A stretch of DNA of 64,000 nt from an uncultured Candidatus Saccharibacteria bacterium (GTDB lineage Bacteria; Patescibacteriota; Minisyncoccia; JACQLN01): assembly GCA_964526375.1 (NCBI GenBank), contig CAZGLK010000001.1, forward strand, positions 4,811 through 68,810. The letters are read 5' to 3'. Shown piece by piece: positions 3-10,151 of the stretch. How positions within the stretch are numbered: position 1 is the stretch's first letter; each line of letters starts with the position of its first letter. The translations under genes and the position numbers were made by a program. The notes beneath the pieces are model-generated. The model searched no databases. It worked only from the letters and a program-made list of their open reading frames with translations, and had not been told where the DNA came from.

Positions 3-185
3 AAGAAAAGAAACTGGTTGAGGATAAACTTGGTTGCGGCTAACTACAGTCAGCTGCAAAAAAGTGTTTGGTTGGGTTATAACCCTTTGCCTGAAAGTTT
101 TATAAAATTTCTTGACGAGTTAAGGCTGAAAAATAAAGTTCATATCGTCAGTGTCAATAAATCAGGCACGATTGAGGAAGTTTAG
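3..185 (+). CDS. 3'-terminal fragment of an upstream ORF, truncated by the window edge; no recognisable family
   Basis: Open frame from the window start to TAG at 183-185 (…NKSGTIEEV*); shorter than the ORF-track cutoff. Confidence 0.25.
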   Translation, partial: KKRNWLRINLVAANYSQLQKSVWLGYNPLPESFIKFLDELRLKNKVHIVSVNKSGTIEEV

Positions 186-223: not shown

Positions 224-269
224 TATTGTTTCCACCAACTAGACGATCGTCCAAGGCAAGGAAACAATA
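224..269. repeat. 46-nt stem-loop repeat, copy A
   Basis: Perfect 10-bp stem TATTGTTTCC/GGAAACAATA enclosing a 26-nt loop with the palindromic core AGACGATCGTC; two more copies in the window share the same architecture. Confidence 0.6.
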
Positions 270-323
270 GCCGCTGACGAGTTTTTGGTAGTTTAGTAAA
301 AGGACAATAGACTGTTTATCTTT

Positions 324-371
324 CTATTGTTTCCTTACCGTAAACGATCGTCTGATAGAGGGAAACAATAG
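324..371. repeat. 46-nt stem-loop repeat, copy B
   Basis: 11-bp stem CTATTGTTTCC/GGAAACAATAG with a 26-nt loop containing AACGATCGTCT. Confidence 0.6.
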
Positions 372-545
372 CACTTTTTAACTACTCTCAAAAACCCGCA
401 TAAAAGCTGGGTTTTTGTGGGGTTGACAGGCATTTAATAATTTGCTAGCATAAAAGAGTTCTTTTCGTATAAATCCACAAGAAAAGCCGCCCTCAGCTAC
501 TTTTCCGCTCTAAGACTATCTAACTTAAAATTCGAGAGGTTTAAG

Positions 546-995
546 ATGAGGCTCGATCAGGATATCAATTTTAATCTGGGAGGAGTGCCGATGGTGATGA
601 GACTTGATACCACGGCGCCAGAAAATGTGTGGATTATTACGCCGAAATGTCAAGAAGACATGGGAGACTCTTTCGCTAACGCCATTAAGAAATGCATCGG
701 CTTTCCTCATCAATTGTTCTCGTTTGGATTTGATGAGGCTGATGTCTACGTTGCTTTAGTGGCGGATGACCAGGCCGTTGTAATATATGGTGGAGATGAG
801 CCCGGTGCTTCTATGGCCTGTAACATTTTCGCCAGTTTGCCAGATTGGAGCGGCGAAAGTCTAAAGGGGCTCAGGGGAGCGGGAGAGTTTGTTGATTTTC
901 TCTCACTTCTTAAAGAGCATGCTGGAATCGAAGTATTTCGACGCAGCGATGGGGAGGTGATTGATTACACAAGCGCTCTTTTACTCTTACGATGA
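546..995 (+). CDS. hypothetical protein (149 aa)
   Basis: ORF with a GAGAGG Shine-Dalgarno 7-8 nt upstream of ATG; no family recognised. Confidence 0.5.
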   Translation: MRLDQDINFNLGGVPMVMRLDTTAPENVWIITPKCQEDMGDSFANAIKKCIGFPHQLFSFGFDEADVYVALVADDQAVVIYGGDEPGASMACNIFASLPDWSGESLKGLRGAGEFVDFLSLLKEHAGIEVFRRSDGEVIDYTSALLLLR

Positions 996-1109
996 GGAGC
1001 CCATTGAATTCTCTCAGATGTTTGATGATTTAGAGGATTCAAAGCTTTTTTGAATCCCATAAAGCCAAAACGGTCGTTAAAAAAATGAACAGCCTGACCA
1101 GCTGTTTTT

Positions 1110-1673
1110 TTATTCCTCGGTTGCTCGTCGAGTATACTCACTTGTTCTGGTATCTACTTCAATAAAATCGCCGGCTTCCACAAAAAGCGGAGTTTTAACC
1201 GTAATGCCGGTTTCTAAAAGAACATCTTTTAAGCCGCCTTGAACGGTGTCGCCTTTTAAGCCGGGCGGAGCATCTTTTACGCGCAGAACAACTTTTATGG
1301 GCAGCTCCAGGCTAATGGGCTGGCCGTTAAAAATAAGAACTTCACACGGCAAATCTTTTTTTAAGTAGCCGGTTTTTTCTTGCAGCAAATCTTGAGCCAA
1401 GCCAAATTTCTCTCCGCCGTCGGTTTGAAAGAAAAATTCGTCCCTGGTGCGATAAGCAAACTTGGCCTTGAGGCGCTCAATGTCGGCCTCGTCAACCTTA
1501 TCGGATTGCTGAAAAGTTTCGGCGCGAACTTTGCCGCTGATCAAGTGGCGGATTTTGGTTTGCATCACCGGCCGTCTTTGGGCCACCTTATTGTGATGAG
1601 CTTCCAGAACTTGATAAGGCTCGCCCTCCAGTTCAATCAAAACGCCGGGTTTTAGGTTGTTCATTGAAAGCAT
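1110..1673 (-). CDS. efp: translation elongation factor P
   Basis: Colinear with EF-P (…NGQPISLELP…PGLKGDT…GG…LETG…VKTPLFVEAGDFIEVDTRTSEY…). The start is taken at the internal Met (MLSMNNLKPG; MNN at 1664 also possible); the ORF-track start at 1724 lies in the repeat-rich upstream region. Confidence 0.85.
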   Translation of the reverse strand: MLSMNNLKPGVLIELEGEPYQVLEAHHNKVAQRRPVMQTKIRHLISGKVRAETFQQSDKVDEADIERLKAKFAYRTRDEFFFQTDGGEKFGLAQDLLQEKTGYLKKDLPCEVLIFNGQPISLELPIKVVLRVKDAPPGLKGDTVQGGLKDVLLETGITVKTPLFVEAGDFIEVDTRTSEYTRRATEE

Positions 1674-1689
1674 AATGCGATGCCAATCA

Positions 1690-1779
1690 ACGAATGACAT
1701 GCGAATTATGCGAATAGAATCCATTCAAATCAAATAAAAAATTCGTATCATTCGCACGAATTCGCATATTAGCATCGCG
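1690..1779. promoter_or_regulatory. divergent efp/comEC intergenic region carrying an inverted array of ATGCGAAT / ATTCGCAT units
   Basis: atgcgaattatgcgaata … attcgcacgaattcgcat arranged as an imperfect palindrome around ~1731; the same CGAAT unit family recurs upstream of other genes. Confidence 0.3.
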
Positions 1780-1798
1780 TTGAGTATACTAAATACTA

Positions 1799-2947
1799 AT
1801 GAGCTTATCAAGGGCGGCGGTTATCGGCGCGGTGGCGTTTATGGCGGGCGTGGCGGTTTATTCCGTGGCTGGTTTGCAGTGGTGGCTGGTGAGCGCGCTC
1901 GTGGGCGCGGTGGCGGTTTTGGGTGTGGTAGGCGCTCGGGTTAATGTAAAATATCTCGCGCCCATTTTTGTTGTTGTTTTGTCTTTGCTGGCTGGGCTGG
2001 TTTGGGGGGCCGTTTATCGGCCTCAACCGAAGCAGGAAAAAACTTTTTGGCAGGATGCGCGGGCGGCGTTAACGGCCAAGGCAGATAAAATTATGCCCCA
2101 ACCCGAGGCCGCGGTTTTTGACGGCATGGTTTTGGGCTACGATAAAAACATCCCCGCTTCTTTGAAAGACATTTACAACATTACCGGCACGCGGCATATT
2201 CTGGCCATATCGGGCATGAACATTTCCATTGTGTCCTTAATGCTGATGAGTTTTGGTTTGGCTCTCGGTTTGTGGCGGCGTCAGGCTTTTTGGCTGGCGC
2301 TCGCGGGCATAATCGCTTTTGTTCTTTTGGTAGGCAGTCCGCCTTCAGCTGTTAGGGCCGGCTTGATGGCCGGCATAGTTTTGTGGGCCAGAAACCACGG
2401 TCGGCTGTTCTTAGCTTGGCGGCCGCTGGTATTGGCCGCATTTTTTATGGTCTTGTTGAATCCGCGCCTCTTGATTTTTGACATTGGGTTTCAGCTTTCT
2501 TTTTTGGCGGTGGCCGGCATTTTATATTTTAAGAACTTTTGGGATCATGTTTTCGGCTGGCTGCCCGTAAAACTTGCCCGTGAGTTATTGTCGCTTTCGT
2601 TTGCGGCCCAAATTACCACTTGGCCCATTATTCTTTACAACTTCGGCACCTTTTCACTGGTCGGCCCCATAGCCAATATCTTTGTGGTGCCGCTTTTAAA
2701 CCCCATAATGCTTTTGGGTTTAGGATTTGCGATTTTTTCATGGTGGCCGATATTGTCCCAGGTGTTTTTGTGGCCAGCTTGGCTTATCTTGAAATTAGCC
2801 GACAAAGCCGTGGAATTTTTTGCTACCTTCCCTTGGGCCAGTTTGAACTTGGGCCAGCCGGGTTTGATCGTGCTCGCTTATTATCCTTTCCTGTTGTGGC
2901 TGTGGAAGTTTTTAGAAAGAAAGGGCTTGAACGAGGCGGTGCATTGA
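1799..2947 (+). CDS. comEC: ComEC/Rec2 competence-domain membrane protein (N-terminal half of a split ComEC)
   Basis: Polytopic membrane protein with the ComEC competence-domain signature (NITGTRHILAISGMNISIVSLML). Confidence 0.8.
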   Translation: MSLSRAAVIGAVAFMAGVAVYSVAGLQWWLVSALVGAVAVLGVVGARVNVKYLAPIFVVVLSLLAGLVWGAVYRPQPKQEKTFWQDARAALTAKADKIMPQPEAAVFDGMVLGYDKNIPASLKDIYNITGTRHILAISGMNISIVSLMLMSFGLALGLWRRQAFWLALAGIIAFVLLVGSPPSAVRAGLMAGIVLWARNHGRLFLAWRPLVLAAFFMVLLNPRLLIFDIGFQLSFLAVAGILYFKNFWDHVFGWLPVKLARELLSLSFAAQITTWPIILYNFGTFSLVGPIANIFVVPLLNPIMLLGLGFAIFSWWPILSQVFLWPAWLILKLADKAVEFFATFPWASLNLGQPGLIVLAYYPFLLWLWKFLERKGLNEAVH

Positions 2948-2974
2948 TATCGAGGTTGTGTATCCAGTTCATAA

Positions 2975-3085
2975 ACCGACCCGAACAATCCGAATTTTAC
3001 CCGAATGACCCGAACCAATTCGGATGAGATATTCGTTAAGTTCGGATTATTTCGCGTCATTCGGATGTATTCGTGGTTAGGGATC
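2975..3085. repeat. phased CCGAA(T)/ATTCGG heptamer array between the two ComEC halves
   Basis: cccgaacaatccgaattttacccgaatgacccgaaccaattcgg followed by the inverted ttcggatg…ttcgttaagttcggatt…cattcggatgtattcg; unit spacing is ~9-11 bp. Confidence 0.4.
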
Positions 3086-3092
3086 GCGTTTT

Positions 3093-3911
3093 ATGTGGTT
3101 GTCTAAAAAATTTGTCTTGGGGGTTTTGGCGTTTATTTTAATCTTGATTTCTTATGCCGTTTGGCAGAAGGGGAACCAGTCGCCGCGGCTGGTGTTTTTG
3201 AATGTGGGGCAGGGCGATGCCATGCTGGCCAGTTTGCCCGGCGACATTCAAATTTTGGTGGACGCCGGGCCGTCGGGCGAGTTGGCTTCTAAACTTTCCG
3301 GCTATTTGCCTTTTTACGATCGCGATATTGAACTGGCAATTTTAACCCATCCCCACGCCGATCACCTGCGGGGTTTTTTGGAGATATTCAAAAATTACAA
3401 TGTTAAAAATTTTATCTTTTCGGGTGCCAATTATTCCAGCCGGGTTTATGCCGATTTTATGGAGGCGTTAAGAAAAGAGGGCAGCGGTGTTTACTTGGCC
3501 GGAAAAGGTGATGTTGTCAGTTATCGGGGCAGACCGATATTGAGAATTTTTTCTCCCGATAAGGTTGAACTTGGGCGTGATTTCAAAAAAATTCACGAGG
3601 CCAACATTGTTAGCCAGCTGGAACTGGGCCATAGAAAATTTTTGCTGATGGGCGATGCCGAAGAAGATCTTGAATTGCGGCTCATCGCGTCAAAGACGAT
3701 TCAAGACGTGGACATTCTAAAAGTCGGCCACCACGGTTCTAAAACCTCCACCTCGGAAAAATTGCTCCAAGCCGCTCGTCCCGAAGAAGCCATCATCTCC
3801 GTCGGCCGCAACTCCTACGGCCACCCCAACCCCGGTGTCCTGGATCGCCTGCATCAAACCGGAGCCAAAGTTTTTAGGACGGATCAGGTGGGGGATGTGG
3901 TTTATAGGTAG
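3093..3911 (+). CDS. comEC: ComEC C-terminal metallo-beta-lactamase domain protein (second half of split ComEC)
   Basis: N-terminal TM helix then MBL motifs LTHPHADHLRG and KVGHHGSKTS. Confidence 0.8.
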   Translation: MWLSKKFVLGVLAFILILISYAVWQKGNQSPRLVFLNVGQGDAMLASLPGDIQILVDAGPSGELASKLSGYLPFYDRDIELAILTHPHADHLRGFLEIFKNYNVKNFIFSGANYSSRVYADFMEALRKEGSGVYLAGKGDVVSYRGRPILRIFSPDKVELGRDFKKIHEANIVSQLELGHRKFLLMGDAEEDLELRLIASKTIQDVDILKVGHHGSKTSTSEKLLQAARPEEAIISVGRNSYGHPNPGVLDRLHQTGAKVFRTDQVGDVVYR

Positions 3912-3947
3912 AAGTTAGAATCTAGAAGTTAGAAAATAGAATATCTT

Positions 3948-4012
3948 TTGGAGACCGAATCTCCAAAAATTGTAATCCCGGAGTTTCTGTTTTGGAGACT
4001 TAGTCTCCAAAA
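3948..4012. repeat. 65-bp direct repeat R1 (copy 1) with two internal hairpins
   Basis: ttggagaccgaatctccaaaaattgtaatcccggagtttctgttttggagacttagtctccaaaa; identical to 4789-4853; contains hairpins GGAGAccgaaTCTCC and GGAGACttaGTCTCC. Confidence 0.7.
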
Positions 4013-4016
4013 TTGG

Positions 4017-4048
4017 GCTCCCGGTGAAAAACATCGGGGGCTTTTTTT
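4017..4048 (+). terminator. rho-independent terminator T1 (copy 1)
   Basis: gctCCCGGTGaaaaaCATCGGGGgcttttttt: 7-bp stem (one G·U), 5-nt loop, U-run; duplicated at 5831-5860. Confidence 0.6.
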
Positions 4049-4077
4049 ATTTTTGAAATTAAGCTAGGATAACAGCA

Positions 4078-4416
4078 ATGAGGTTGGAGCATCAATCAGC
4101 TGAAGAATTAAAAAAGGAAATCTTGGGAATTACGGGTAAATATCTTGATTTAACCAAGTACCGGCTTTTCTTTTTTGGCTCGCGGGTGGCGGGTGATGGT
4201 GATGAGCATTCCGATGTGGATGTGGGTATTGATGGCATTGAGCCACTCCCGCCCGGGGCTATTTCGAGTATTCAGCAGGAACTGGACGATTTGAATACAC
4301 TCTATAAGATACAGGCTGTTGATTTCCAAAAAGTCTCGGAGGATTTTCGCAGGGTTGCCCTGAGCAAGGTAGAGATAATCAATCAACAAGATGAGCAAGC
4401 TAACAGCGGTGATTAA
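4078..4416 (+). CDS. minimal nucleotidyltransferase (MNT) antitoxin-type protein
   Basis: Pol-beta-like NTase motif GSRVAG…SDVDVGI; its 3' end overlaps the downstream HEPN gene. Confidence 0.75.
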   Translation: MRLEHQSAEELKKEILGITGKYLDLTKYRLFFFGSRVAGDGDEHSDVDVGIDGIEPLPPGAISSIQQELDDLNTLYKIQAVDFQKVSEDFRRVALSKVEIINQQDEQANSGD

Positions 4417-4768
4417 ACAATTTGAACAGGCTCTAAGCCGCTTGGACGAGGTTTTGAAAGAACCCAAGACCGATATAGTTAGAGATTCGGCTATAAAGAG
4501 ATTTGAGATTGTTTTTGATCTGTCTTGGAAGGCGGTCAAGGTTTTTTTGGAAGAGAAGAAGGGCATAGTTTGCCGCTCTCCGAAGGAATGTTTTCGTTCG
4601 GCTTATCAGGAGAAGCTGTTGGAGTACGACAATTTCTGGCTGGAGCTGACTGATAGTAGAAACGACATTGTGCATGTATACGGTGAATCGGAGGCGGAGA
4701 AAGTTTATGGAATTTTGCCCGAAGCCCTGCTTAGATTTAAGGAGTTGTTGGGTGCTCTCAAATCGTAG
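4391..4768 (+). CDS. HEPN-domain (nucleotidyltransferase substrate-binding, HI0074-like) toxin-type protein
   Basis: About 125 aa and helical; the overlap (4391-4416) with the MNT gene is typical of MNT-HEPN toxin-antitoxin pairs. Confidence 0.7.
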   Translation: MSKLTAVIKQFEQALSRLDEVLKEPKTDIVRDSAIKRFEIVFDLSWKAVKVFLEEKKGIVCRSPKECFRSAYQEKLLEYDNFWLELTDSRNDIVHVYGESEAEKVYGILPEALLRFKELLGALKS

Positions 4769-4788
4769 GCGGATATTCCGGTCTCGAT

Positions 4789-4853
4789 TTGGAGACCGAA
4801 TCTCCAAAAATTGTAATCCCGGAGTTTCTGTTTTGGAGACTTAGTCTCCAAAA
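4789..4853. repeat. 65-bp direct repeat R1 (copy 2)
   Basis: Identical to 3948-4012 up to …tctccaaaa, then diverges. Confidence 0.7.
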
Positions 4854-4859
4854 ATATCG

Positions 4860-5825
4860 TTGTTATCTCGGCGATGTATCTAAGTCTGCCTAAGCTTAGT
4901 TTGGGAATGGAATAGCAATTGCTTTGGGTTAGGTTAGGTTAGACCAACAAGGTCGGGTGTTTATAACTTGTCCTTGCGCATTTTTTCAATTGGGTATAAG
5001 GTTAAAATAATGTAATGTGATGAAAGTTCTTTAAATTTTGTAGGATGCGTCTGCACTGCGTCCGCCATCCGGAGTTTCCGTGCCACGGAGCTACCGGGTA
5101 ATCAACGGGGTCGATTTTGGTACATCCAATTAAGGAGGTTACCATGTTAGCGCCGCGGAATCGTGGCCGACCTCTTCTGAACAGCTCTAATTCTGTTTCC
5201 GTTCAGGAGAGTTAAGCGTCGACTGCCGGGCGGGCGGGAAACAGCGCCAATGCTAACTGGGAGAATGAGATAAACCGGGGTTCGGGGTGTCGGCTGAGGG
5301 GAGAGGTTATCAGCGACAGCCAGGGGATGAAATTGCCGGCGAGGCAGTTCTTCAAAAAATATCTGCTTCGATGATCAATGTTGTCCGGCGGGCGCGCGTC
5401 TGCCGTGTCAGTAACGGGGAGATGCGCGTTCGCCATTTAGTCTCGCTCCGGAACTTAATCAAATCGCCCGCGCCAAAATTGGCAGCGACGAATTTTGAAA
5501 AAGCTCTGGCTTCAACCGCAAGTTGAGGGCATAATAAGGAGGATCCAAATATGATTGCCCACAACAATCCCGTGCACACGGCCACGCGCGCTTCTCCCTC
5601 TCCGATCACAGGGAACGCAAGTGGTCACAGCGCCGTCGGTCAGAATCAGAACAGCTCCTCGGAAAACTAGTCGGAGATGCGTTAAGGCATATCTGATTGT
5701 GGGCCGACAGCTATCAAAAAAGGTATGCGGCGCTAGAGTCGCGTTTTGTCTCGGTGCACTAAGGAGCGACCGAGCTCCAAAATGCGGCGGCTGACGCAAA
5801 TGTAAGCCATCGAGATTCAACCTCG
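4860..5825. other. GC-rich orphan segment without a long ORF (possible structured RNA, small-peptide locus or decayed foreign DNA)
   Basis: GC visibly higher than flanks; only short overlapping ORFs in all six frames. Two mini-ORFs have perfect AAGGAGG Shine-Dalgarno sequences (ATG 5144, 23 aa; ATG 5551, 39 aa). The segment is bracketed by repeat R1' and terminator copy T1'. Confidence 0.3.
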
Positions 5826-5830
5826 ATAGA

Positions 5831-5860
5831 GCTCCCGGTGAAAAACATCGGGGGCTTTTT
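5831..5860 (+). terminator. rho-independent terminator T1 (copy 2)
   Basis: gctcccggtgaaaaacatcgggggcttttt, identical to 4017-4046. Confidence 0.6.
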
Positions 5861-6104
5861 ATTTGTTATTTGTAGCAATATTGCAGAGTCTTCGGATATT
5901 TCTGTTTCAGGCGATCGCTGGAAATAGAAATATCTGCTGATAGCCGATAGATGTCGATAGATGCTGATGGATTTGGGTTAGAAGTACCTCTTTTTTTATT
6001 CCGGCAGATACGTTAGACTGACAAAACGCAAATTGACGCGGATGATGACCCTGCTTCGCTAGTCAGCTGCGCAGGACACGGCGCGGATTCGCGCGGATAA
6101 TAAT

Positions 6105-7175
6105 ATGACAAAAGGGTTTCCTATTTTTAAAACAAGAATTAAGGGGGTGAATCAAGTTTTTAAACTGGAAGATCCGGTAGATCGCCAAAAGTATTTCCGG
6201 CTTAAGGCCGGGCGGGAAATAGCAAAAATACGCGGCTACCTAAAGAAAAACACTTTTGTTGGTTTTCTTTTGGGCAAGAAAAATTCGGGTAAGGGCACTT
6301 ACGCTAAGTTGTTTATGGAGGCAATTGGCTCAGCCCGCCTTGCTCACATTTCCATTGGCGACATCGTGCGCGGCGTTCACAAAGATTTGAATGATAGGAA
6401 AAGAAAGAAAGATCTGGTTGAGTTTTTAAGGCGCCGTTATCGCGGGCCGATTACCATTGAAAGCGCCTTGGAGATAATCTTGGGCCGGGACACCAAAGGC
6501 CTCTTGCCCACGGAAGTCATATTAGCTTTGGTGGAGCGCGAAATTGACAAGCTGGCCGGCAAAGCCGTTTTTATAGACGGTTTCCCGCGCGATCTGGACC
6601 AAATATCTTACTCGCTTTATTTTAGGGCCTTGATGGGTTACCGCGACGACCCCGATTTTTTTGTTTTTATAGATGTGCCTGAAAGCATCATAGACGAGCG
6701 CATGAAATATCGGGTGGTTTGCCCGTTGTGTCAGACCCCGCGCAATATGCGGGTCCATGCCACCAAAGAGGTGGATTATGATTCCGGCGCCAAAAAGTTT
6801 TACTTGCTGTGCGACAACCCCGGCTGCGGCAAAAAAAGAATGACGGCCAAAGAGGGCGATGAGTTGGGCATTGAGGCTATTCGCTCGCGCATAGAAATAG
6901 ACGATAAAGTTATGAAAACTCTGCTGAACTTTAACGGCATAGACAAAATATATTTGCGCAATTCTGTGCCGGTCAAAACGGCCAAGAGGTATGTGGATGA
7001 CTATGAAATTACGCCGGCTTATCGGTACGAGTGGGACAAAAATGTCAGTAAAGTTAGGATCGTAGAAGAGCCCTGGGTGGTTAAAGACGGCGCCGGAGAA
7101 AAATCTTACAGCTTACTGCCGCCGGCTGTAGTTGTGTCTTTGATTAGGCAAGTGGCCAAGGTTTTATCCTTGTAG
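6105..7175 (+). CDS. adenylate kinase family protein, divergent and extended (356 aa)
   Basis: P-loop GKKNSGKGT, ISIGDIVRG (cf. STGDMLRA), IDGFPRDLDQ (cf. LDGFPRTIPQ), a zinc LID CPLC…C..GC and RSRIE. The N-terminal ~50 aa and C-terminal ~120 aa extensions have no Adk counterpart. Confidence 0.65.
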   Translation: MTKGFPIFKTRIKGVNQVFKLEDPVDRQKYFRLKAGREIAKIRGYLKKNTFVGFLLGKKNSGKGTYAKLFMEAIGSARLAHISIGDIVRGVHKDLNDRKRKKDLVEFLRRRYRGPITIESALEIILGRDTKGLLPTEVILALVEREIDKLAGKAVFIDGFPRDLDQISYSLYFRALMGYRDDPDFFVFIDVPESIIDERMKYRVVCPLCQTPRNMRVHATKEVDYDSGAKKFYLLCDNPGCGKKRMTAKEGDELGIEAIRSRIEIDDKVMKTLLNFNGIDKIYLRNSVPVKTAKRYVDDYEITPAYRYEWDKNVSKVRIVEEPWVVKDGAGEKSYSLLPPAVVVSLIRQVAKVLSL

Positions 7176-7255
7176 ATGGTCAGCTTCCCACATATGTGGA
7201 TAAATGGTTGTTGACTTTTTGATCTATGGTGCTACACCGAAAGCAAGATAAAAAA

Positions 7256-7284
7256 CCCCAGACTTCAAATCTGGGGCTTTTTAT
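7256..7284 (+). terminator. rho-independent terminator
   Basis: CCCCAGActtcaaaTCTGGGGcttttta directly after the adk-like gene. Confidence 0.7.
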
Positions 7285-7339
7285 GCTGGCTACGAAATAC
7301 GACGTAAAGTCGCGTGGCGACCACGTCGCTTTACGCGAA

Positions 7340-7378
7340 TTGTTACGAATATACGAATATGAAATCAAGTGGTATAAT
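7340..7378 (+). promoter_or_regulatory. candidate nth promoter: tandem TACGAAT units plus an extended -10 (TGgTATAAT)
   Basis: ttacgaatatacgaatatgaaatcaagTGgTATAAT, with the -10 at 7373-7378, 20 nt upstream of the nth ATG; the 18-mer tacgaatatacgaatatg recurs at 12576-12593. Confidence 0.4.
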
Positions 7379-7397
7379 TTTAAAAGAGGGAATTTGT

Positions 7398-8111
7398 ATG
7401 TCTAATGTTGTGGCAATAAATCCAAAACTCAAAATCCAAAATCCTAAGCAAATCCCAATGACCAAAATCCAAAACAAATCCCGCGGTGAGGGTTTAGAAG
7501 AGAAAAAGTCTCGGGCGAGCAAGGTTATTGCCTACTTAAAGAAAAAATTTCCCGGTGCCAAAATAGCCCTGAAGTACGGCAACCCAATCCAATTATTAGT
7601 GTCGGTTGTATTATCGGCTCAATGCACCGACAAAAAAGTCAACGAGGTTACGGCGGAGCTGTTTAAGAAATACAAAACAGGGGCTGATTTTGCCGAAGCG
7701 AACACAAAAAAATTTGAGCGGGAAGTAAAGCCCTGCGGGTTTTACCGCAATAAGGCCAAAAATATTATCGCCGCTTGTAAAATCATCCAAGACAAATTCA
7801 AAGGCAAACTGCCGCGAACGATGGCCGAGATGTTAACTTTGCCGGGCGTGGCCCGCAAAACCGCCAATGTGGTTTTGGGCAATGCCTTTGGTGTGGTGGA
7901 GGGGATTGCGGTGGATACGCACATGATCCGCATCAATCAGAAGCTTGGTTTTTCTACCAGTACCGACCCCAAAAAAATTGAGAGGGATCTTATGCAGATT
8001 ATTCCTAAAAAGGATTGGTTTAAATACACCTATTTAATAATTGACTACGGCCGCCAGGTTTGCCCGGCGCGGCATAAAAAATGTGAGTGCGGGATTTATA
8101 AAATTAAATAG
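7398..8111 (+). CDS. nth: endonuclease III (DNA glycosylase/AP lyase)
   Basis: HhH-GPD motifs LVSVVLSAQCTD and LPGVARKTANVV, DTHMIRI, and a C-terminal [4Fe-4S] cluster C-x6-C-x2-C-x5-C. The start is chosen at MSNVV with an AGAGGG RBS; the ORF-track start at 7314 lies inside the promoter repeats. Confidence 0.85.
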   Translation: MSNVVAINPKLKIQNPKQIPMTKIQNKSRGEGLEEKKSRASKVIAYLKKKFPGAKIALKYGNPIQLLVSVVLSAQCTDKKVNEVTAELFKKYKTGADFAEANTKKFEREVKPCGFYRNKAKNIIAACKIIQDKFKGKLPRTMAEMLTLPGVARKTANVVLGNAFGVVEGIAVDTHMIRINQKLGFSTSTDPKKIERDLMQIIPKKDWFKYTYLIIDYGRQVCPARHKKCECGIYKIK

Positions 8112-8127
8112 GATTCGTCTGATAACG

Positions 8128-8168
8128 CGATCCGAAAAATCCGAATACATCCGAATGACCCGAATAGA
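8128..8168. repeat. four phased direct repeats of (A/C)TCCGAA(T)
   Basis: atccgaaaa atccgaatac atccgaatg acccgaatag with ~10-bp periodicity, immediately 5' of / overlapping the next ORF start. Confidence 0.4.
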
Positions 8169-9294
8169 ATTCAAAAAATTGATGGCCATATTTTTGGTTT
8201 GCGTTTTGCTATTTGGTCTGGTCGGATTTGTGGAAGCAGGCAAAATTAAGGACATTAAAAAGCGCAGCCGCGCGTCTGTTTTTATTCCTCCGCAAAGCCG
8301 CCAAGAGATAATCCGGCCGGCTCGCAACGCCGTGTTTTTTAGTCCGCTGGAAACAATCATCACTTCGGGTCCGGCGAACAACAATTTTGTTCAAAGCACC
8401 AGTGTTGAGTTTGTTTTGGACGGCTGGCAGATAGTGCCTTTTAAAAAAACCAATCGTTTTGAGGTTTGGCTGTTTGGCCTGGACGCTGGCTGGCGCGAGG
8501 CCGGGGAGAGAATAAGCTATAACCTGCCGCCCGGCAAGCGGCTTTATACTTTTATGGCCCGGGCCAAAAACGAAGCCGGCGAGACGGATCGCACCGCCGC
8601 GGTTAGAAATTTTTATACTTTCACCTCGCCCTATTACGGCAAGATTGACATTACTGCCGTGGACGGCCGCGGTTCTTTTGACAAGCCGCAGTATGAGCGC
8701 GTCACTTTGTACGCTCGTAATCTGGCCGGCCCCGTTAATGTTAGCGGCTGGCGGCTGGCTACCCGCCGCAAGAGTTTTTCGTTTGCAATCCCTTCGGCGG
8801 CGCGGTTGTTTGATCCCGCCAATCTTATCGGCATAGAGCCGATCAAACTCTCGTCTGGAGATTCGCTGAATGTTTTTGTGGGCAAGGCAAGCCCGGTGGG
8901 AAGCGGTTTTCAGGAGAATGGCTGTATGGGCTATTTGCGGTCGGGTTTTGAAGGTTACGATGCTCTGGCCGGCGGCGGCAGTTGCTCGGCTGTCAGCCCT
9001 TCCGTGTATAGCAGTTACAGCGTTGACTGCCGCCGGTTCTTAAACGGCTTGAGCGCTTGCGCCAGCGTGAACTTGGAGCCGTGGCAATTCGGGGCCGATC
9101 CCGCTTGCCGTGATTTTATAGTTAGAAATTACAATTACGCCGCTTGCGTGGAGCGCGGCAAAAACCAAGCCAACTTTTTTACCGGCCGCTGGAGAATTTA
9201 TCTGGGCCAGAGCGATGAAATTCTGGATGATTTGGATGACACGGTTTATTTGTACGACGGGCAGGGGTTGTTGGTGGACATATACAGTTATTAG
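8155..9294 (+). CDS. secreted protein with a lamin-tail-like (LTD) segment and a Cys-rich C-terminus
   Basis: N-terminal signal/TM (MAIFLVCVLLFGLVGFVEA); YERVTLYARNLAGPVNVSGWRL resembles LTD; the start could also be 8182. Confidence 0.55.
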   Translation: MTRIEFKKLMAIFLVCVLLFGLVGFVEAGKIKDIKKRSRASVFIPPQSRQEIIRPARNAVFFSPLETIITSGPANNNFVQSTSVEFVLDGWQIVPFKKTNRFEVWLFGLDAGWREAGERISYNLPPGKRLYTFMARAKNEAGETDRTAAVRNFYTFTSPYYGKIDITAVDGRGSFDKPQYERVTLYARNLAGPVNVSGWRLATRRKSFSFAIPSAARLFDPANLIGIEPIKLSSGDSLNVFVGKASPVGSGFQENGCMGYLRSGFEGYDALAGGGSCSAVSPSVYSSYSVDCRRFLNGLSACASVNLEPWQFGADPACRDFIVRNYNYAACVERGKNQANFFTGRWRIYLGQSDEILDDLDDTVYLYDGQGLLVDIYSY

Positions 9295-9323
9295 TGAGTA
9301 GGGAGTAGGGGGGTAAAAATTAA

Positions 9324-9362
9324 AACAGCCGCTTCGTTTTTTGTGCGAAGGGCTGTTTTATG
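9324..9362. terminator. bidirectional hairpin terminator between convergent genes
   Basis: acagccgcttcg-ttttttgtg-cgaagggctgt with T-runs on both strands. Confidence 0.5.
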
Positions 9363-9557
9363 TTACGAGACCGTGGCCCCGAAACGGATGGTGGGGTTGC
9401 ATACGATTTCTTCTATGCATTTTGTGAATAAGTCTCCTAGGGTATCGGGGTGAAAGTCTTCATGGTGGATTAGATCTCTGATCTTGTCTGGTGTCATTAG
9501 GTCGGGAGGCGGCCTTTGACCCATTAGTTTTTCCCAAGCCTGTTCAATGGGAGTCAT
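9363..9557 (-). CDS. small hypothetical protein (64 aa), paralog of 9873-10151
   Basis: Shared pattern AW..M.G..PPP……HP……C..EI with the neighbouring ORF; GC-richer than the backbone. Confidence 0.45.
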   Translation of the reverse strand: MTPIEQAWEKLMGQRPPPDLMTPDKIRDLIHHEDFHPDTLGDLFTKCIEEIVCNPTIRFGATVS

Positions 9558-9708
9558 AAAATATCACCACCTTTGTGTTGAAAGAACTTGGTTCTATTTT
9601 CTCACGGCGGTTGCAGCGGCGCAAGTGTATAAACTACGGCACCGCCCAATTTTTACAGCCAAAGTATTCCGAGGGGGCAGGTCAAACATGTAGCAACTCA
9701 TTTCATTG

Positions 9709-9754
9709 TATTGTTTCCTCTTCCCAGACGATCGTCTGTGGGATGGAAACAATA
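9709..9754. repeat. 46-nt stem-loop repeat, copy C
   Basis: 10-bp stem TATTGTTTCC/GGAAACAATA and a 26-nt loop with AGACGATCGTC; same architecture as copies A and B. Confidence 0.6.
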
Positions 9755-9872
9755 TCAAAGTCGCTTACAAATCATCGCTGGAAGAAATTTTTAGCGGGAT
9801 TCTTGCAAAGGAACAAATAAAAATCCGCCCCGATGCGCGCATCGGGGCGGGGGAGGAGGGAAGGAACTTGCT

Positions 9873-10151
9873 TTAGATGGACTCCAGCACTGGACCATCT
9901 AGAAAAGAACTCGCCGGGGTGTGTTCCAGAAACTGGTTACCGGCCCAGATTTGTATCTCCTCCGAGTCGTAGGTGTCGGGATCGTTCCGAATCTCATCCA
10001 CACAGGCTCGGAAGGTTGCCAGCCCTATAATACGAGGATGAAAACTCGGATCACCGATCAGGATTTTGGCAATAACCTGCGCCCGGGCCGGTGGTGGCCC
10101 GTCGCCATTCATTGCCTGCCAAGCCGCGTAAAACGGGTGGTTCTGGTCCAT
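9873..10151 (-). CDS. small hypothetical protein (92 aa), paralog of 9363-9557
   Basis: See its paralog; GC-rich; immediately downstream of murD on the same strand. Confidence 0.45.
   Translation of the reverse strand: MDQNHPFYAAWQAMNGDGPPPARAQVIAKILIGDPSFHPRIIGLATFRACVDEIRNDPDTYDSEEIQIWAGNQFLEHTPASSFLDGPVLESI

What the first reader, a model, noticed from the sequence alone, without database searches (positions are those of the whole stretch)
224..9754. Three copies of a conserved 46-nt stem-loop (ATTGTTTCC-N26-GGAAACAAT) with a GACGATCGTC palindromic core
Seen in sequence: copies at 224-269, 324-371 and 9709-9754 share a perfect 10-11 bp stem, an identical loop length of 26 nt and a central AGACGATCGTC block, while the other loop bases vary. 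Conservation of structure rather than sequence suggests a functional RNA hairpin (small RNA or attenuator) or a protein-binding or recombination site. Two copies are tandem upstream of a hypothetical gene. The third lies between two GC-rich paralogous small ORFs (9363-10151). The family may therefore mark boundaries of inserted DNA.
Basis: seen in the sequence. Interest (0 to 1): 0.6.

Follow-up and report, generated by a model that had tools for sequence, protein, structure and literature searches.

The report
Operator sites of a PaaX-like regulator
The three 46-base palindromes are most likely DNA binding sites for the small PaaX-like transcription regulator encoded right beside them in an uncultured Parcubacteria (CPR) genome. 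They are an ordinary kind of element, but they give a first view of how an abundant protein family, which NCBI labels as Cas2 in three of the homologues seen here, is wired.

Summary
TATTGTTTCC-N8-(A/G)ACGATCGTC-N8-GGAAACAATA occurs at 224-269, 325-370 and 9709-9754, against 0 expected by chance.

A fourth copy lies just left of the window, in that gene's promoter region.

I examined 13 genes of this protein family. Twelve have a palindrome 21-76 nt upstream of the start codon, and all 12 that could be checked have one 37-112 nt after the stop codon. Ten of the 13 loci use this same design, with an invariant CGATCG centre and outer arms that differ by paralogue (TGTTTCC, TGTTAAC, TTATAAC). The arm type tracks changes in the recognition helix. 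Read as TGTTTC-N28-GAAACA, the arms match the published E. coli PaaX box (TGATTC-N27/28-GAATCA).

Mid-spacer bases are unconstrained, RNA folding stability is not conserved, and separate canonical terminators sit next to the copies. The best reading is therefore a three-part DNA operator, not an RNA hairpin, a terminator or an insertion boundary.

Binding is inferred, not shown. Two features are unexplained: the invariant centre, and the site that follows the gene even where the next gene converges on it. This is a new variant of a known kind, of moderate interest.

The parts
3..185 (+). 3' end (last 60 codons) of a 177-aa PaaX-like regulator gene. The rest of the gene lies left of the window; the full gene is L040 9107-9640.
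   Evidence: Translation. The window's first 4012 bases are identical to the end of JACQLP010000049.1. Pfam PF20803 PaaX_M, E = 3.5e-14. A profile built from 50 homologues hits only this ORF in the window. An AlphaFold2 model of the 85%-identical orthologue best matches E. coli PaaX 8A39 and Jannaschia 3L09.
224..269 (.). Palindrome 1: TATTGTTTCC-ACCAACTA-GACGATCGTC-CAAGGCAA-GGAAACAATA. Its centre is 61 nt after the regulator's stop codon. The 85% orthologue locus L043 has no counterpart.
325..370 (.). Palindrome 2: TATTGTTTCC-TTACCGTA-AACGATCGTC-TGATAGAG-GGAAACAATA. It is orthologous to the single downstream site of L043. Its spacers resemble those of the upstream promoter copy (13 of 18 positions).
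389..417 (+). Terminator-like hairpin (AAAAACCCGC-ATAAAA-GCTGGGTTTTT) that would end the regulator's transcript after the two palindromes.
   Evidence: RNA fold -17.9 kcal/mol, z = -5.0. The simple terminator scan did not flag it because the stem has a bulge.
423..451 (+). Promoter-like site TTGACA-17-TAGCAT, with TG before the -10 box, in front of the 149-aa ORF.
   Evidence: This is a consensus match only.
546..995 (+). 149-aa ORF of unknown function, a candidate regulated gene. It is absent from the orthologous locus L043.
   Evidence: No family hit in Pfam, NCBIfam or PADLOC.
9709..9754 (.). Palindrome 3: TATTGTTTCC-TCTTCCCA-GACGATCGTC-TGTGGGAT-GGAAACAATA. It ends 151 nt upstream of the start of the 64-aa minus-strand ORF, and lies 70 nt beyond the terminator of the 92-aa ORF.
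9363..9557 (-). 64-aa ORF with a good ribosome-binding site, a candidate regulated gene. Its L043 orthologue has no palindrome upstream.
9825..9850 (-). Canonical intrinsic terminator (11-bp GC-rich stem plus T run) of the 92-aa ORF. It shows that the palindrome next to it is not needed as a terminator.
9873..10151 (-). 92-aa ORF, a weak paralogue of the 64-aa ORF. It lies upstream of palindrome 3 in the direction of transcription.

Best explanation
The palindromes are three-part DNA operators for the truncated PaaX-like regulator encoded beside them.

Shown:
- Each site has two 7-10 bp inverted outer arms, an invariant central CGATCG (usually ACGATCGT) exactly on the dyad, and about 5 unconstrained bases in the middle of each spacer.
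- One site sits in the regulator's own promoter region, and one or two follow its stop codon.
- Paralogous regulators, including two in this same genome, carry sites with the same centre but different arms.
- The arms have the spacing of the E. coli PaaX box and nearly its sequence.

Inferred:
- A dimer of the 177-aa protein places its two winged-helix recognition helices on the outer arms, 34 bp apart centre to centre (about 3.2 helical turns).
- The Cas2-like dimerisation domain, or the wings, lies over the dyad and contacts CGATCG.
- Binding at the upstream site represses the regulator's own promoter.
- The site or sites after the gene act as auxiliary operators, either by DNA looping over roughly 600-750 bp or as roadblocks. 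Where the next gene runs the same way, they may also act as its operator.
- Copy 3 brings the 64-aa ORF under the same control, and copies 1 and 2 possibly the 149-aa ORF.
- The signal that releases the protein is unknown, because the ligand-binding C-terminal domain of true PaaX is missing.
For: 1. Adjacency. Window 3-185 is the end of a PF20803 PaaX_M protein. A fourth copy lies at L040 9011-9056, 74 nt (centre) before its ATG, with two TATAAT boxes in between.

2. Generality. All 10 loci that carry the CGATCG design (L040, L043, L044, L045, L047, L049, L051, L052, L054, L061) have a site 21-76 nt upstream of the start codon. All 9 with enough sequence also have one 37-112 nt after the stop codon. 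More distant members are bracketed by other palindromes (L057 and the 217-aa gene in L059).

3. Chance. A random window position has an outer perfect run of 7 or more with probability 0.0015, yet 4 of the 13 CGATCG sites in the window have one.

4. Specificity.
- Arms are TGTTTCC beside the window's regulator and its 85% orthologue.
- Arms are TGTTAAC beside seven paralogues, including P0021 from the same genome assembly (3 of 3 sites there).
- Arms are TTATAAC beside P0053.
- The recognition helix reads RKFSV(I/V)LSK, mostly RT(F/L)SxxLSR (P0086 has RSFSAILSK), and PTFLTLLHR respectively.

5. Family match. The AlphaFold2 model (pLDDT 80) best matches E. coli W PaaX 8A39 and Jannaschia 3L09 over about 175 columns. 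The published EcoPaaX box is TGATTC(N27)GAATCA (PMC9493321). In E. coli K-12 I find TGATTC-N27-GAATCG before paaA and TGTTTC-N28-GAATCA before paaZ. The window sites read TGTTTC-N28-GAAACA.

6. Selection pattern. Between orthologous sites the arms and centre are kept while the spacers diverge.
Against: - No binding experiment or expression data exist, and promoters are inferred from TATAAT-like boxes only.
- Copies 1 and 2 lie before a terminator-like hairpin and 50-150 nt upstream of the nearest promoter-like site, which is an odd place for a simple repressor operator.
- In 4 of the 12 loci that could be checked the downstream palindrome lies between convergent genes, where there is no promoter to control (L043 and L054 with the CGATCG design; L057 and L059 with other palindromes). 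A further palindrome of the same design, not next to a regulator gene, also lies between convergent genes (L045 1132-1175).
- No central element is reported in the published E. coli PaaX box, so what reads CGATCG is unknown.
- The link between helix and arms rests on few independent lineages.
- The contexts examined were chosen for long contigs, not at random.
Confidence: 0.72

Rival explanations
1. RNA-level element. The palindromes are transcribed and act as hairpins in the 5' and 3' untranslated regions of the regulator's mRNA and of other mRNAs. They could stabilise the mRNA, serve as processing sites, or bind the Cas2-like (RRM-fold) domain.
For: - Several copies fold well as RNA (-14 to -25 kcal/mol, z = -3 to -6).
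- The downstream copies lie between the stop codon and a terminator, so they are probably transcribed.
- In L044 and L051 a TATAAT box lies just upstream of the palindrome, which would put it in the 5' leader.
- The arms are 90% Watson-Crick symmetric, with changes on both sides.
Against: - Stability is not conserved: L051 and L054 give -6 to -7.5 kcal/mol, z about -1.5.
- The mid-spacers pair at chance level, leaving large internal loops.
- G-U pairs are almost absent from the inner arms, as expected for a symmetric DNA site.
- The L043 upstream site keeps the centre and one arm only, so it cannot form the hairpin.
- In L040, L045 and L057 the TATAAT boxes lie downstream of the palindrome.
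- No Rfam family reaches its threshold.
- Symmetry is equally expected for a dimeric DNA-binding protein, and the arms copy the PaaX box.
Confidence: 0.1
2. Mobile or recombination element. The palindromes are recombination or att-like sites that bracket a movable regulator cassette, analogous to REP sequences flanking RAYT genes. The Cas2-like domain would then act as a nuclease at CGATCG.
For: - The gene is flanked on both sides by its own palindrome in nearly every locus.
- Extra solitary copies exist (window copy 3, L017, L047 2730, L045 1153).
- The aspartate that aligns with the Cas2 catalytic residue (D111) is invariant in 51 homologues.
- Copy 1, copy 3 and the 149-aa ORF differ between 85%-related genomes.
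- The upstream copy and copy 2 share spacer sequence in direct orientation, 13 of 18 positions.
Against: - The cassette position is conserved between relatives (window versus L043; L045 versus L049).
- Copy number is low, 3-4 in about 73 kb.
- Spacer similarity between the flanking sites is at background level in all other lineages except L051, where it is borderline (12 of 18, an AT-rich locus).
- The loci of this genome hold no transposase or integrase. The one Y1_Tnp gene seen, in L049, lies about 7.5 kb from the regulator.
- There were no hits in viral contigs.
- No HUH or catalytic tyrosine motif is among the invariant residues.
Confidence: 0.07
3. The centre and the arms are read by different factors. 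For example, CGATCG could be a methylation or restriction target, or the site of a second conserved protein, while only the arms belong to the PaaX-like protein. Alternatively the sites could be protein-bound insulators or roadblock terminators rather than promoter operators.
For: - CGATCG is invariant across lineages whose arms differ, and it contains GATC.
- Palindromes occur between convergent genes (L043, L054, L045 1153).
- Other CGATCG-centred palindromes with unrelated arms exist (window 5892-5937, L043 3763-3798).
Against: - No methyltransferase or second regulator is consistently nearby.
- The centre always lies exactly on the dyad of the arms, at a fixed distance of 8-9 nt. This argues for one complex rather than independent sites.
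Confidence: 0.08

Closest known systems
PaaX repressor and its operator (PaaX box) of the phenylacetate catabolic genes in E. coli and Pseudomonas
   Same: - The protein fold is shared: an N-terminal winged helix plus a Cas2-like middle domain. The top structural hits are 8A39 and 3L09.
- The operator design is shared: two 6-bp inverted half-sites 27-28 bp apart, TGATTC...GAATCA versus TGTTTC-N28-GAAACA.
- In both systems a site lies in the regulator's own promoter.
   Different: - The protein here is 177 aa and lacks the PaaX C-terminal domain. It scores 19 bits against the PaaX equivalog model, whose cut-off is 264.
- No paa genes are nearby.
- The sites have an invariant CGATCG on the dyad, which is not part of the published PaaX box.
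- A second site follows the stop codon in all 12 loci that could be checked.
- Many paralogues carry different arm specificities.
Repressors with auxiliary operators that act by DNA looping (lac O1/O2/O3, gal OE/OI, deo)
   Same: There are two or more copies of the same operator a few hundred bp apart. One is at the promoter and one is inside or beyond the transcription unit.
   Different: Looping here is only inferred. The second site lies after the whole gene (602-748 bp away) rather than within or just upstream of it. The protein's oligomeric state is unknown.
REP/REPIN palindromes flanking RAYT (Y1 transposase) genes
   Same: A gene is flanked on both sides by the palindrome that its product presumably recognises, and further solitary copies lie in intergenic regions.
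   Different: The protein is not a Y1/HUH transposase. Copy number is a few, not tens to hundreds. The internal sequence is not conserved among copies, and loci are syntenic between relatives.
Intrinsic (Rho-independent) terminators
   Same: Both are inverted repeats located after stop codons.
   Different: The palindromes have AT-rich arms, a large unpaired interior and no consistent U run. Real GC-rich terminators sit beside them, and copies also lie upstream of genes.

Membership tests
PaaX-type operator (PaaX box) | Two inverted 6-bp half-sites related to TGATTC/GAATCA, separated by about 26-28 bp | tested here: met
   The window sites read TGTTTC-N28-GAAACA, 5 of 6 bases per half-site. 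E. coli K-12 has TGATTC-N27-GAATCG before paaA and TGTTTC-N28-GAATCA before paaZ. The published box is quoted in PMC9493321.
PaaX-type operator (PaaX box) | Sites lie at the promoter of the regulator gene and of regulated genes | tested here: inconclusive
   The upstream site is present in 12 of 13 loci, within 21-76 nt of the ATG and beside TATAAT boxes. However, promoters are only sequence guesses. Window copies 1 and 2 lie before a terminator, and some palindromes lie between convergent genes.
PaaX-type operator (PaaX box) | Bound by the cognate PaaX-family protein | not testable with these tools
   Only indirect support is available: adjacency, and arms that track the recognition-helix sequence.
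PaaX regulator proper (TIGR02277 equivalog) | Full three-domain protein with a C-terminal phenylacetyl-CoA-responsive domain, linked to paa genes | tested here: not met
   The protein is 177 aa and only PaaX_M is detected. It scores 19 bits against a cut-off of 264. No paa genes are in the window or the loci. It is a distant, truncated relative, not a PaaX orthologue.
Structured RNA family (Rfam) | A match to a curated covariance model at its gathering score | tested here: not met
   Only two tRNAs reach threshold in the window. Hits over 150-560 are far below threshold.
Intrinsic terminator | A GC-rich stem of at least 5 bp followed directly by a U run | tested here: not met
   The terminator scans did not flag the palindromes. 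Separate terminator hairpins exist at 389-417 and 9825-9850.
REP/RAYT system | The flanked gene encodes a Y1 (HUH) transposase, and the palindromes occur in tens to hundreds of copies | tested here: not met
   The gene is PaaX_M, not PF01797. There are 3 copies in 64 kb plus 1 outside. The whole-genome copy number could not be counted.
MITE or other non-autonomous transposon | Near-identical copies including the internal sequence, terminal inverted repeats and target-site duplications | tested here: not met
   The interiors differ completely among copies, and no flanking duplications were seen.
CRISPR array with Cas2 | An array of identical direct repeats with unique spacers, plus cas1 and cas2 genes | tested here: not met
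   Only two tandem units are present and their interiors differ. No Cas1 is nearby. The Cas2 similarity is a sub-threshold domain match inside a PaaX-like protein.

The most novel reading that the evidence does not exclude
The short winged-helix plus Cas2-like proteins of Parcubacteria, each bracketed by its own palindrome, may be more than ordinary repressors. The invariant CGATCG on the dyad, the invariant Cas2-type aspartate and the obligatory site after the stop codon could mark one of two things. One is a self-contained unit in which the protein cuts, recombines or insulates DNA at these sites, as a REP/RAYT-like or cassette-like system built on a Cas2 fold. The other is a CPR-wide family of protein-dependent roadblock insulators with programmable arm specificity.
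Probability: 0.1. Interest if true: 0.75.

Novelty: new variant of a known kind. Interest (0 to 1): 0.45.

Why it matters
Almost nothing is known about gene regulation in Candidate Phyla Radiation bacteria. This protein family is large: 3,467 clusters at 50% identity have E ≤ 1e-10. Several members carry the NCBI label 'CRISPR-associated endonuclease Cas2'.

The work here links the family to a recognisable DNA site whose arms can be read off beside each gene. That gives a direct way to predict regulons in uncultured genomes, and it corrects the Cas2 annotation.

It also supplies natural orthogonal regulator and operator pairs within one cell, TGTTTCC versus TGTTAAC arms.

Two questions about PaaX-family DNA recognition become testable. 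What reads the invariant CGATCG at the dyad? Why does a second site always follow the gene?

Tried and rejected
- **Genome collection scan.** The exact pattern gave 29 hits. Inspection showed that 28 are single chance matches in unrelated taxa without the centre. Only L017, a Patescibacteria genome bin, is a true relative.
- **Metagenome scan.** Searching GTTTCC-N9-ACGATCGT-N9-GGAAAC gave 10 hits. Only two are real, and both are the same locus as L017.
- **Viral contigs.** No hits.
- **Limit of these scans.** They used one arm type with exact matching, so they undercount the family.
- **Rfam.** Nothing reached threshold, either at gathering score or by E-value.
- **Terminator reading.** Rejected.
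- **att-like duplication.** I tested whether flanking sites are direct duplicates. Only L040-upstream versus copy 2 (13 of 18) stands out from a background of 6.4 ± 2.5.
- **Discrete insertion around copy 3.** The alignment with L043 is too diverged to tell.
- **Promoter scans.** These were uninformative for the upstream sites, because both hexamers are required.
- **PDB sequence searches.** They gave no PaaX hit. Only the fold search did.
- **Candidate target ORFs.** The 149-, 64- and 92-aa ORFs have no family hit in Pfam, NCBIfam or PADLOC.


Full report
**Observation.** The pattern ATTGTTTCC-N26-GGAAACAAT occurs exactly three times in the window, at 225-268, 326-369 and 9710-9753. None of 100 shuffles gave a match. 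With the flanking T/A pair the units are 46 nt long: 224-269, 325-370 and 9709-9754. They read TATTGTTTCC-N8-(A/G)ACGATCGTC-N8-GGAAACAATA. Relaxed searches found no further full or half copies in the 64 kb.

- Window 3-185 encodes the last 60 residues of a protein.
- The window's first 4012 bases are identical to the end of contig JACQLP010000049.1 of assembly GCA_016204085.1, a Parcubacteria-group genome bin (the organism name comes from a protein of the same assembly).
- On that contig the gene is complete (L040 9107-9640, 177 aa). It has a predicted winged helix followed by Pfam PF20803, the 'PaaX central Cas2-like domain' (E = 3.5e-14), and no PaaX C-terminal domain.
- A fourth copy of the palindrome lies just left of the window, at L040 9011-9056. 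Its centre is 74 nt before the ATG, and two TATAAT boxes lie in between.
- The regulator gene is therefore bracketed: one palindrome in its promoter region, and two after its stop codon (window copies 1 and 2). A terminator-like hairpin follows at 389-417 (-17.9 kcal/mol, z = -5.0).

**Related loci.**
- The protein has many homologues in Parcubacteria and Sungbacteria (136 hits). A profile search finds 5,805 clusters at 50% identity with E ≤ 1e-3, and 3,467 with E ≤ 1e-10.
- I fetched the genomic context of twelve homologues and scanned for palindromes centred on CGATCG.
- All ten loci of the closer subfamily have such a palindrome 21-76 nt (centre) upstream of the start codon. These are L040, L043, L044, L045, L047, L049, L051, L052, L054 and L061.
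- All nine of them with enough downstream sequence also have one 37-112 nt after the stop codon.
- The centre is always CGATCG. It is ACGATCGT in most sites and CCGATCGT in L054.
- The arms differ by lineage:
  - TGTTTCC beside the window's gene and its 85% orthologue (L043), and also in L017.
  - TGTTAAC beside P0004, P0016, P0021, P0034, P0064, P0086 and P0095.
  - TTATAAC beside P0053.
- P0021 is a paralogue in the same assembly as the window (contig 109). All three sites around it carry TGTTAAC arms, whereas all four around the window's gene carry TGTTTCC.
- More distant family members are bracketed by other palindromes. L057 has TATCAGTTATCAMTGC-TATC sites on both sides. The 217-aa gene in L059 has TATACCATTAG...ACGGCCGT sites on both sides. 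For P0119 in L059 only a downstream palindrome was found.
- A random position in the window has an outer perfect run of 7 or more with probability 0.0015, yet 4 of the window's 13 CGATCG sites have one.

**Anatomy of the site.** I aligned 22 sites without gaps (A6) and counted pairs.
- The outer arms are 90% symmetric, and nearly all variation is on both sides at once.
- The centre is 95.5% symmetric and essentially invariant.
- The spacers are 62% symmetric overall. That symmetry is confined to the base next to each arm and the three bases next to the centre.
- The middle five positions of each spacer pair at chance level.
- Spacing between arm and centre is 9 nt in most sites and 8 nt in L043 and L052.
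- Between orthologous sites the spacers have diverged while the arms and centre are intact (window copy 2 versus L043; L045 versus L049).

This pattern indicates selection on three sequence blocks, not on base pairing as such.

**Link to PaaX.**
- An AlphaFold2 model of the 85% orthologue P0001 (mean pLDDT 80) shows a winged helix, with the recognition helix at 50-62 and the wing at 66-79. A linker helix and a beta-alpha-beta-beta-alpha-beta domain follow.
- Its best matches among solved structures are E. coli W PaaX (8A39) and the Jannaschia PaaX-like protein (3L09), over about 175 columns. Winged-helix regulators and Cas2 match the two halves separately.
- A review gives the E. coli PaaX binding sequence as TGATTC(N27)GAATCA, and states that PaaX represses its own promoter (PMC9493321).
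- In the E. coli K-12 paa locus I find TGATTC-N27-GAATCG before paaA and TGTTTC-N28-GAATCA before paaZ.
- Read with 6-bp half-sites, the window palindromes are TGTTTC-N28-GAAACA. That is the same design and differs from the E. coli consensus at one base per half-site.
- The recognition helix differs in step with the arms. It reads RKFSV(I/V)LSK with TGTTTCC, RT(F/L)SxxLSR with TGTTAAC (six proteins; P0086 has RSFSAILSK), and PTFLTLLHR with TTATAAC.
- This correlation is suggestive, but it rests on few independent lineages.
- The protein is not a PaaX orthologue. It lacks the C-terminal domain, scores 19 bits against an equivalog cut-off of 264, and has no paa genes nearby.

**Most likely mechanism (inferred).**
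- A dimer binds each 46-bp site, with its two recognition helices on the outer arms. The arms are 34 bp apart centre to centre, about 3.2 helical turns.
- The dyad-placed Cas2-like dimerisation domain or the wings contact CGATCG. The Cas2-like domain carries the invariant or nearly invariant residues D111, P113, E114, K119, R120 and R124.
- The upstream site overlaps or abuts the promoter and would give autorepression.
- The downstream site or sites would serve as auxiliary operators, through looping over 602-748 bp or as roadblocks. Where the next gene is co-directional they may also be that gene's operator, as for rpiB in L045 and L049.
- In the window, copy 3 lies upstream of the 64-aa ORF at 9363-9557, beyond the canonical terminator of the 92-aa ORF. 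Copies 1 and 2 lie upstream of the 149-aa ORF.
- These small ORFs have no recognisable family and are candidate regulon members.
- In L017 the same site lies 51 nt before a 155-aa gene with a weak, sub-threshold DUF4878 match.
- The regulon is not fixed. L043 lacks copy 1, the 149-aa ORF and the copy 3 region.

**Rivals.**
- *RNA hairpin.* Some copies fold well, but others do not (-6 to -7.5 kcal/mol, z about -1.5). The interior is unpaired. The L043 upstream site keeps only the centre and one arm. The palindrome lies upstream of the TATAAT boxes in some loci and downstream in others. Rfam gives nothing.
- *Plain terminator.* Excluded, because canonical terminators sit beside the copies.
- *Mobile or recombination element.* The bracketing and the solitary copies resemble REP/RAYT, and the Cas2-type aspartate is invariant. 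Against this, loci are syntenic between relatives, copy number is low, and no transposase lies near the window's regulator. Spacer similarity between flanking sites is at background level except for one clear pair and one borderline pair.
- *Separate factor for the centre.* A second factor that reads CGATCG cannot be excluded, but the centre's fixed position on the dyad argues for one complex.

**Unexplained.**
- Why CGATCG is invariant while the arms diversify.
- Why a site follows the stop codon even where the next gene is convergent (L043, L054, L057, L059).
- What signal controls a PaaX-like protein that has no ligand domain.

**Verdict.** This is a real and non-random feature. It is best explained as a PaaX-type three-part operator of the adjacent truncated PaaX-like regulator, which makes it a new variant of a known kind. 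I found no paper that describes this family's operators, within the limits of the held library. Interest is moderate: the kind of element is ordinary, but it opens up regulon prediction for a large protein family that is sometimes mislabelled as Cas2.

Noticed in passing
window 5892-5937; L043 3763-3798: A second kind of long palindrome centred on GCGATCGC, with unrelated arms. The window has GATATTTCT...AGAAATATC and L043 has GTGTATACC...GGTATACA. Both lie at the same place, upstream of the adenylate-kinase-like gene. It may be the operator of another regulator.
   Followed up: partly
window 4800-5850: About 1 kb of relatively GC-rich DNA without a convincing long ORF, ending in a terminator-like hairpin near 5835-5860. 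It contains two mini-ORFs with strong AAGGAGG ribosome-binding sites, starting at about 5145 and about 5552. There is no Rfam match. The whole 3.9-6.1 kb insert is absent from the orthologous L043 locus.
   Followed up: partly
window 4078-4416 and 4391-4768: An overlapping gene pair encoding a nucleotidyltransferase (Polbeta/NTP_transf_2) and a protein with NTase_sub_bind and HepT-like domains. This is the usual MNT/HEPN toxin-antitoxin arrangement. It lies in the segment that L043 lacks.
   Followed up: no
L040 8877-8960 (left of the window): A 27-codon, very hydrophobic mini-ORF (MVFGVVIGFIVGFVLAGVIAVIIAANS) ends about 50 nt before the upstream palindrome of the regulator gene.
   Followed up: no
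L045 1132-1175: A nearly perfect 44-nt palindrome with the same AGACGATCGTCT centre but arms TATATTAC. It lies between the convergent lepA and release-factor genes, where there is no promoter. It may belong to another paralogue, or hint at a role other than promoter control.
   Followed up: no
L054 9825, 9950, 10573 (site centres): All three sites around this Sungbacteria homologue have the asymmetric centre CCGATCGT in the same orientation. The downstream site has arms CTTACC/GGTAAG, unlike the two upstream sites (TGTTAAC type).
   Followed up: no
P0021, P0074, P0086: NCBI labels three homologues of the regulator 'CRISPR-associated endonuclease Cas2' (P0021, P0074, P0086), and JGI labels a fourth, P0116, similarly. 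They are winged-helix plus Cas2-like proteins with no cas1 gene in the contexts examined (P0074's was not examined). This looks like a systematic misannotation.
   Followed up: partly
window 1799-2947 and 3093-3911: The ComEC competence protein is encoded as two separate ORFs, one with the Competence domain and one with the metallo-beta-lactamase domain. The same split is seen in L040 through L043.
   Followed up: no
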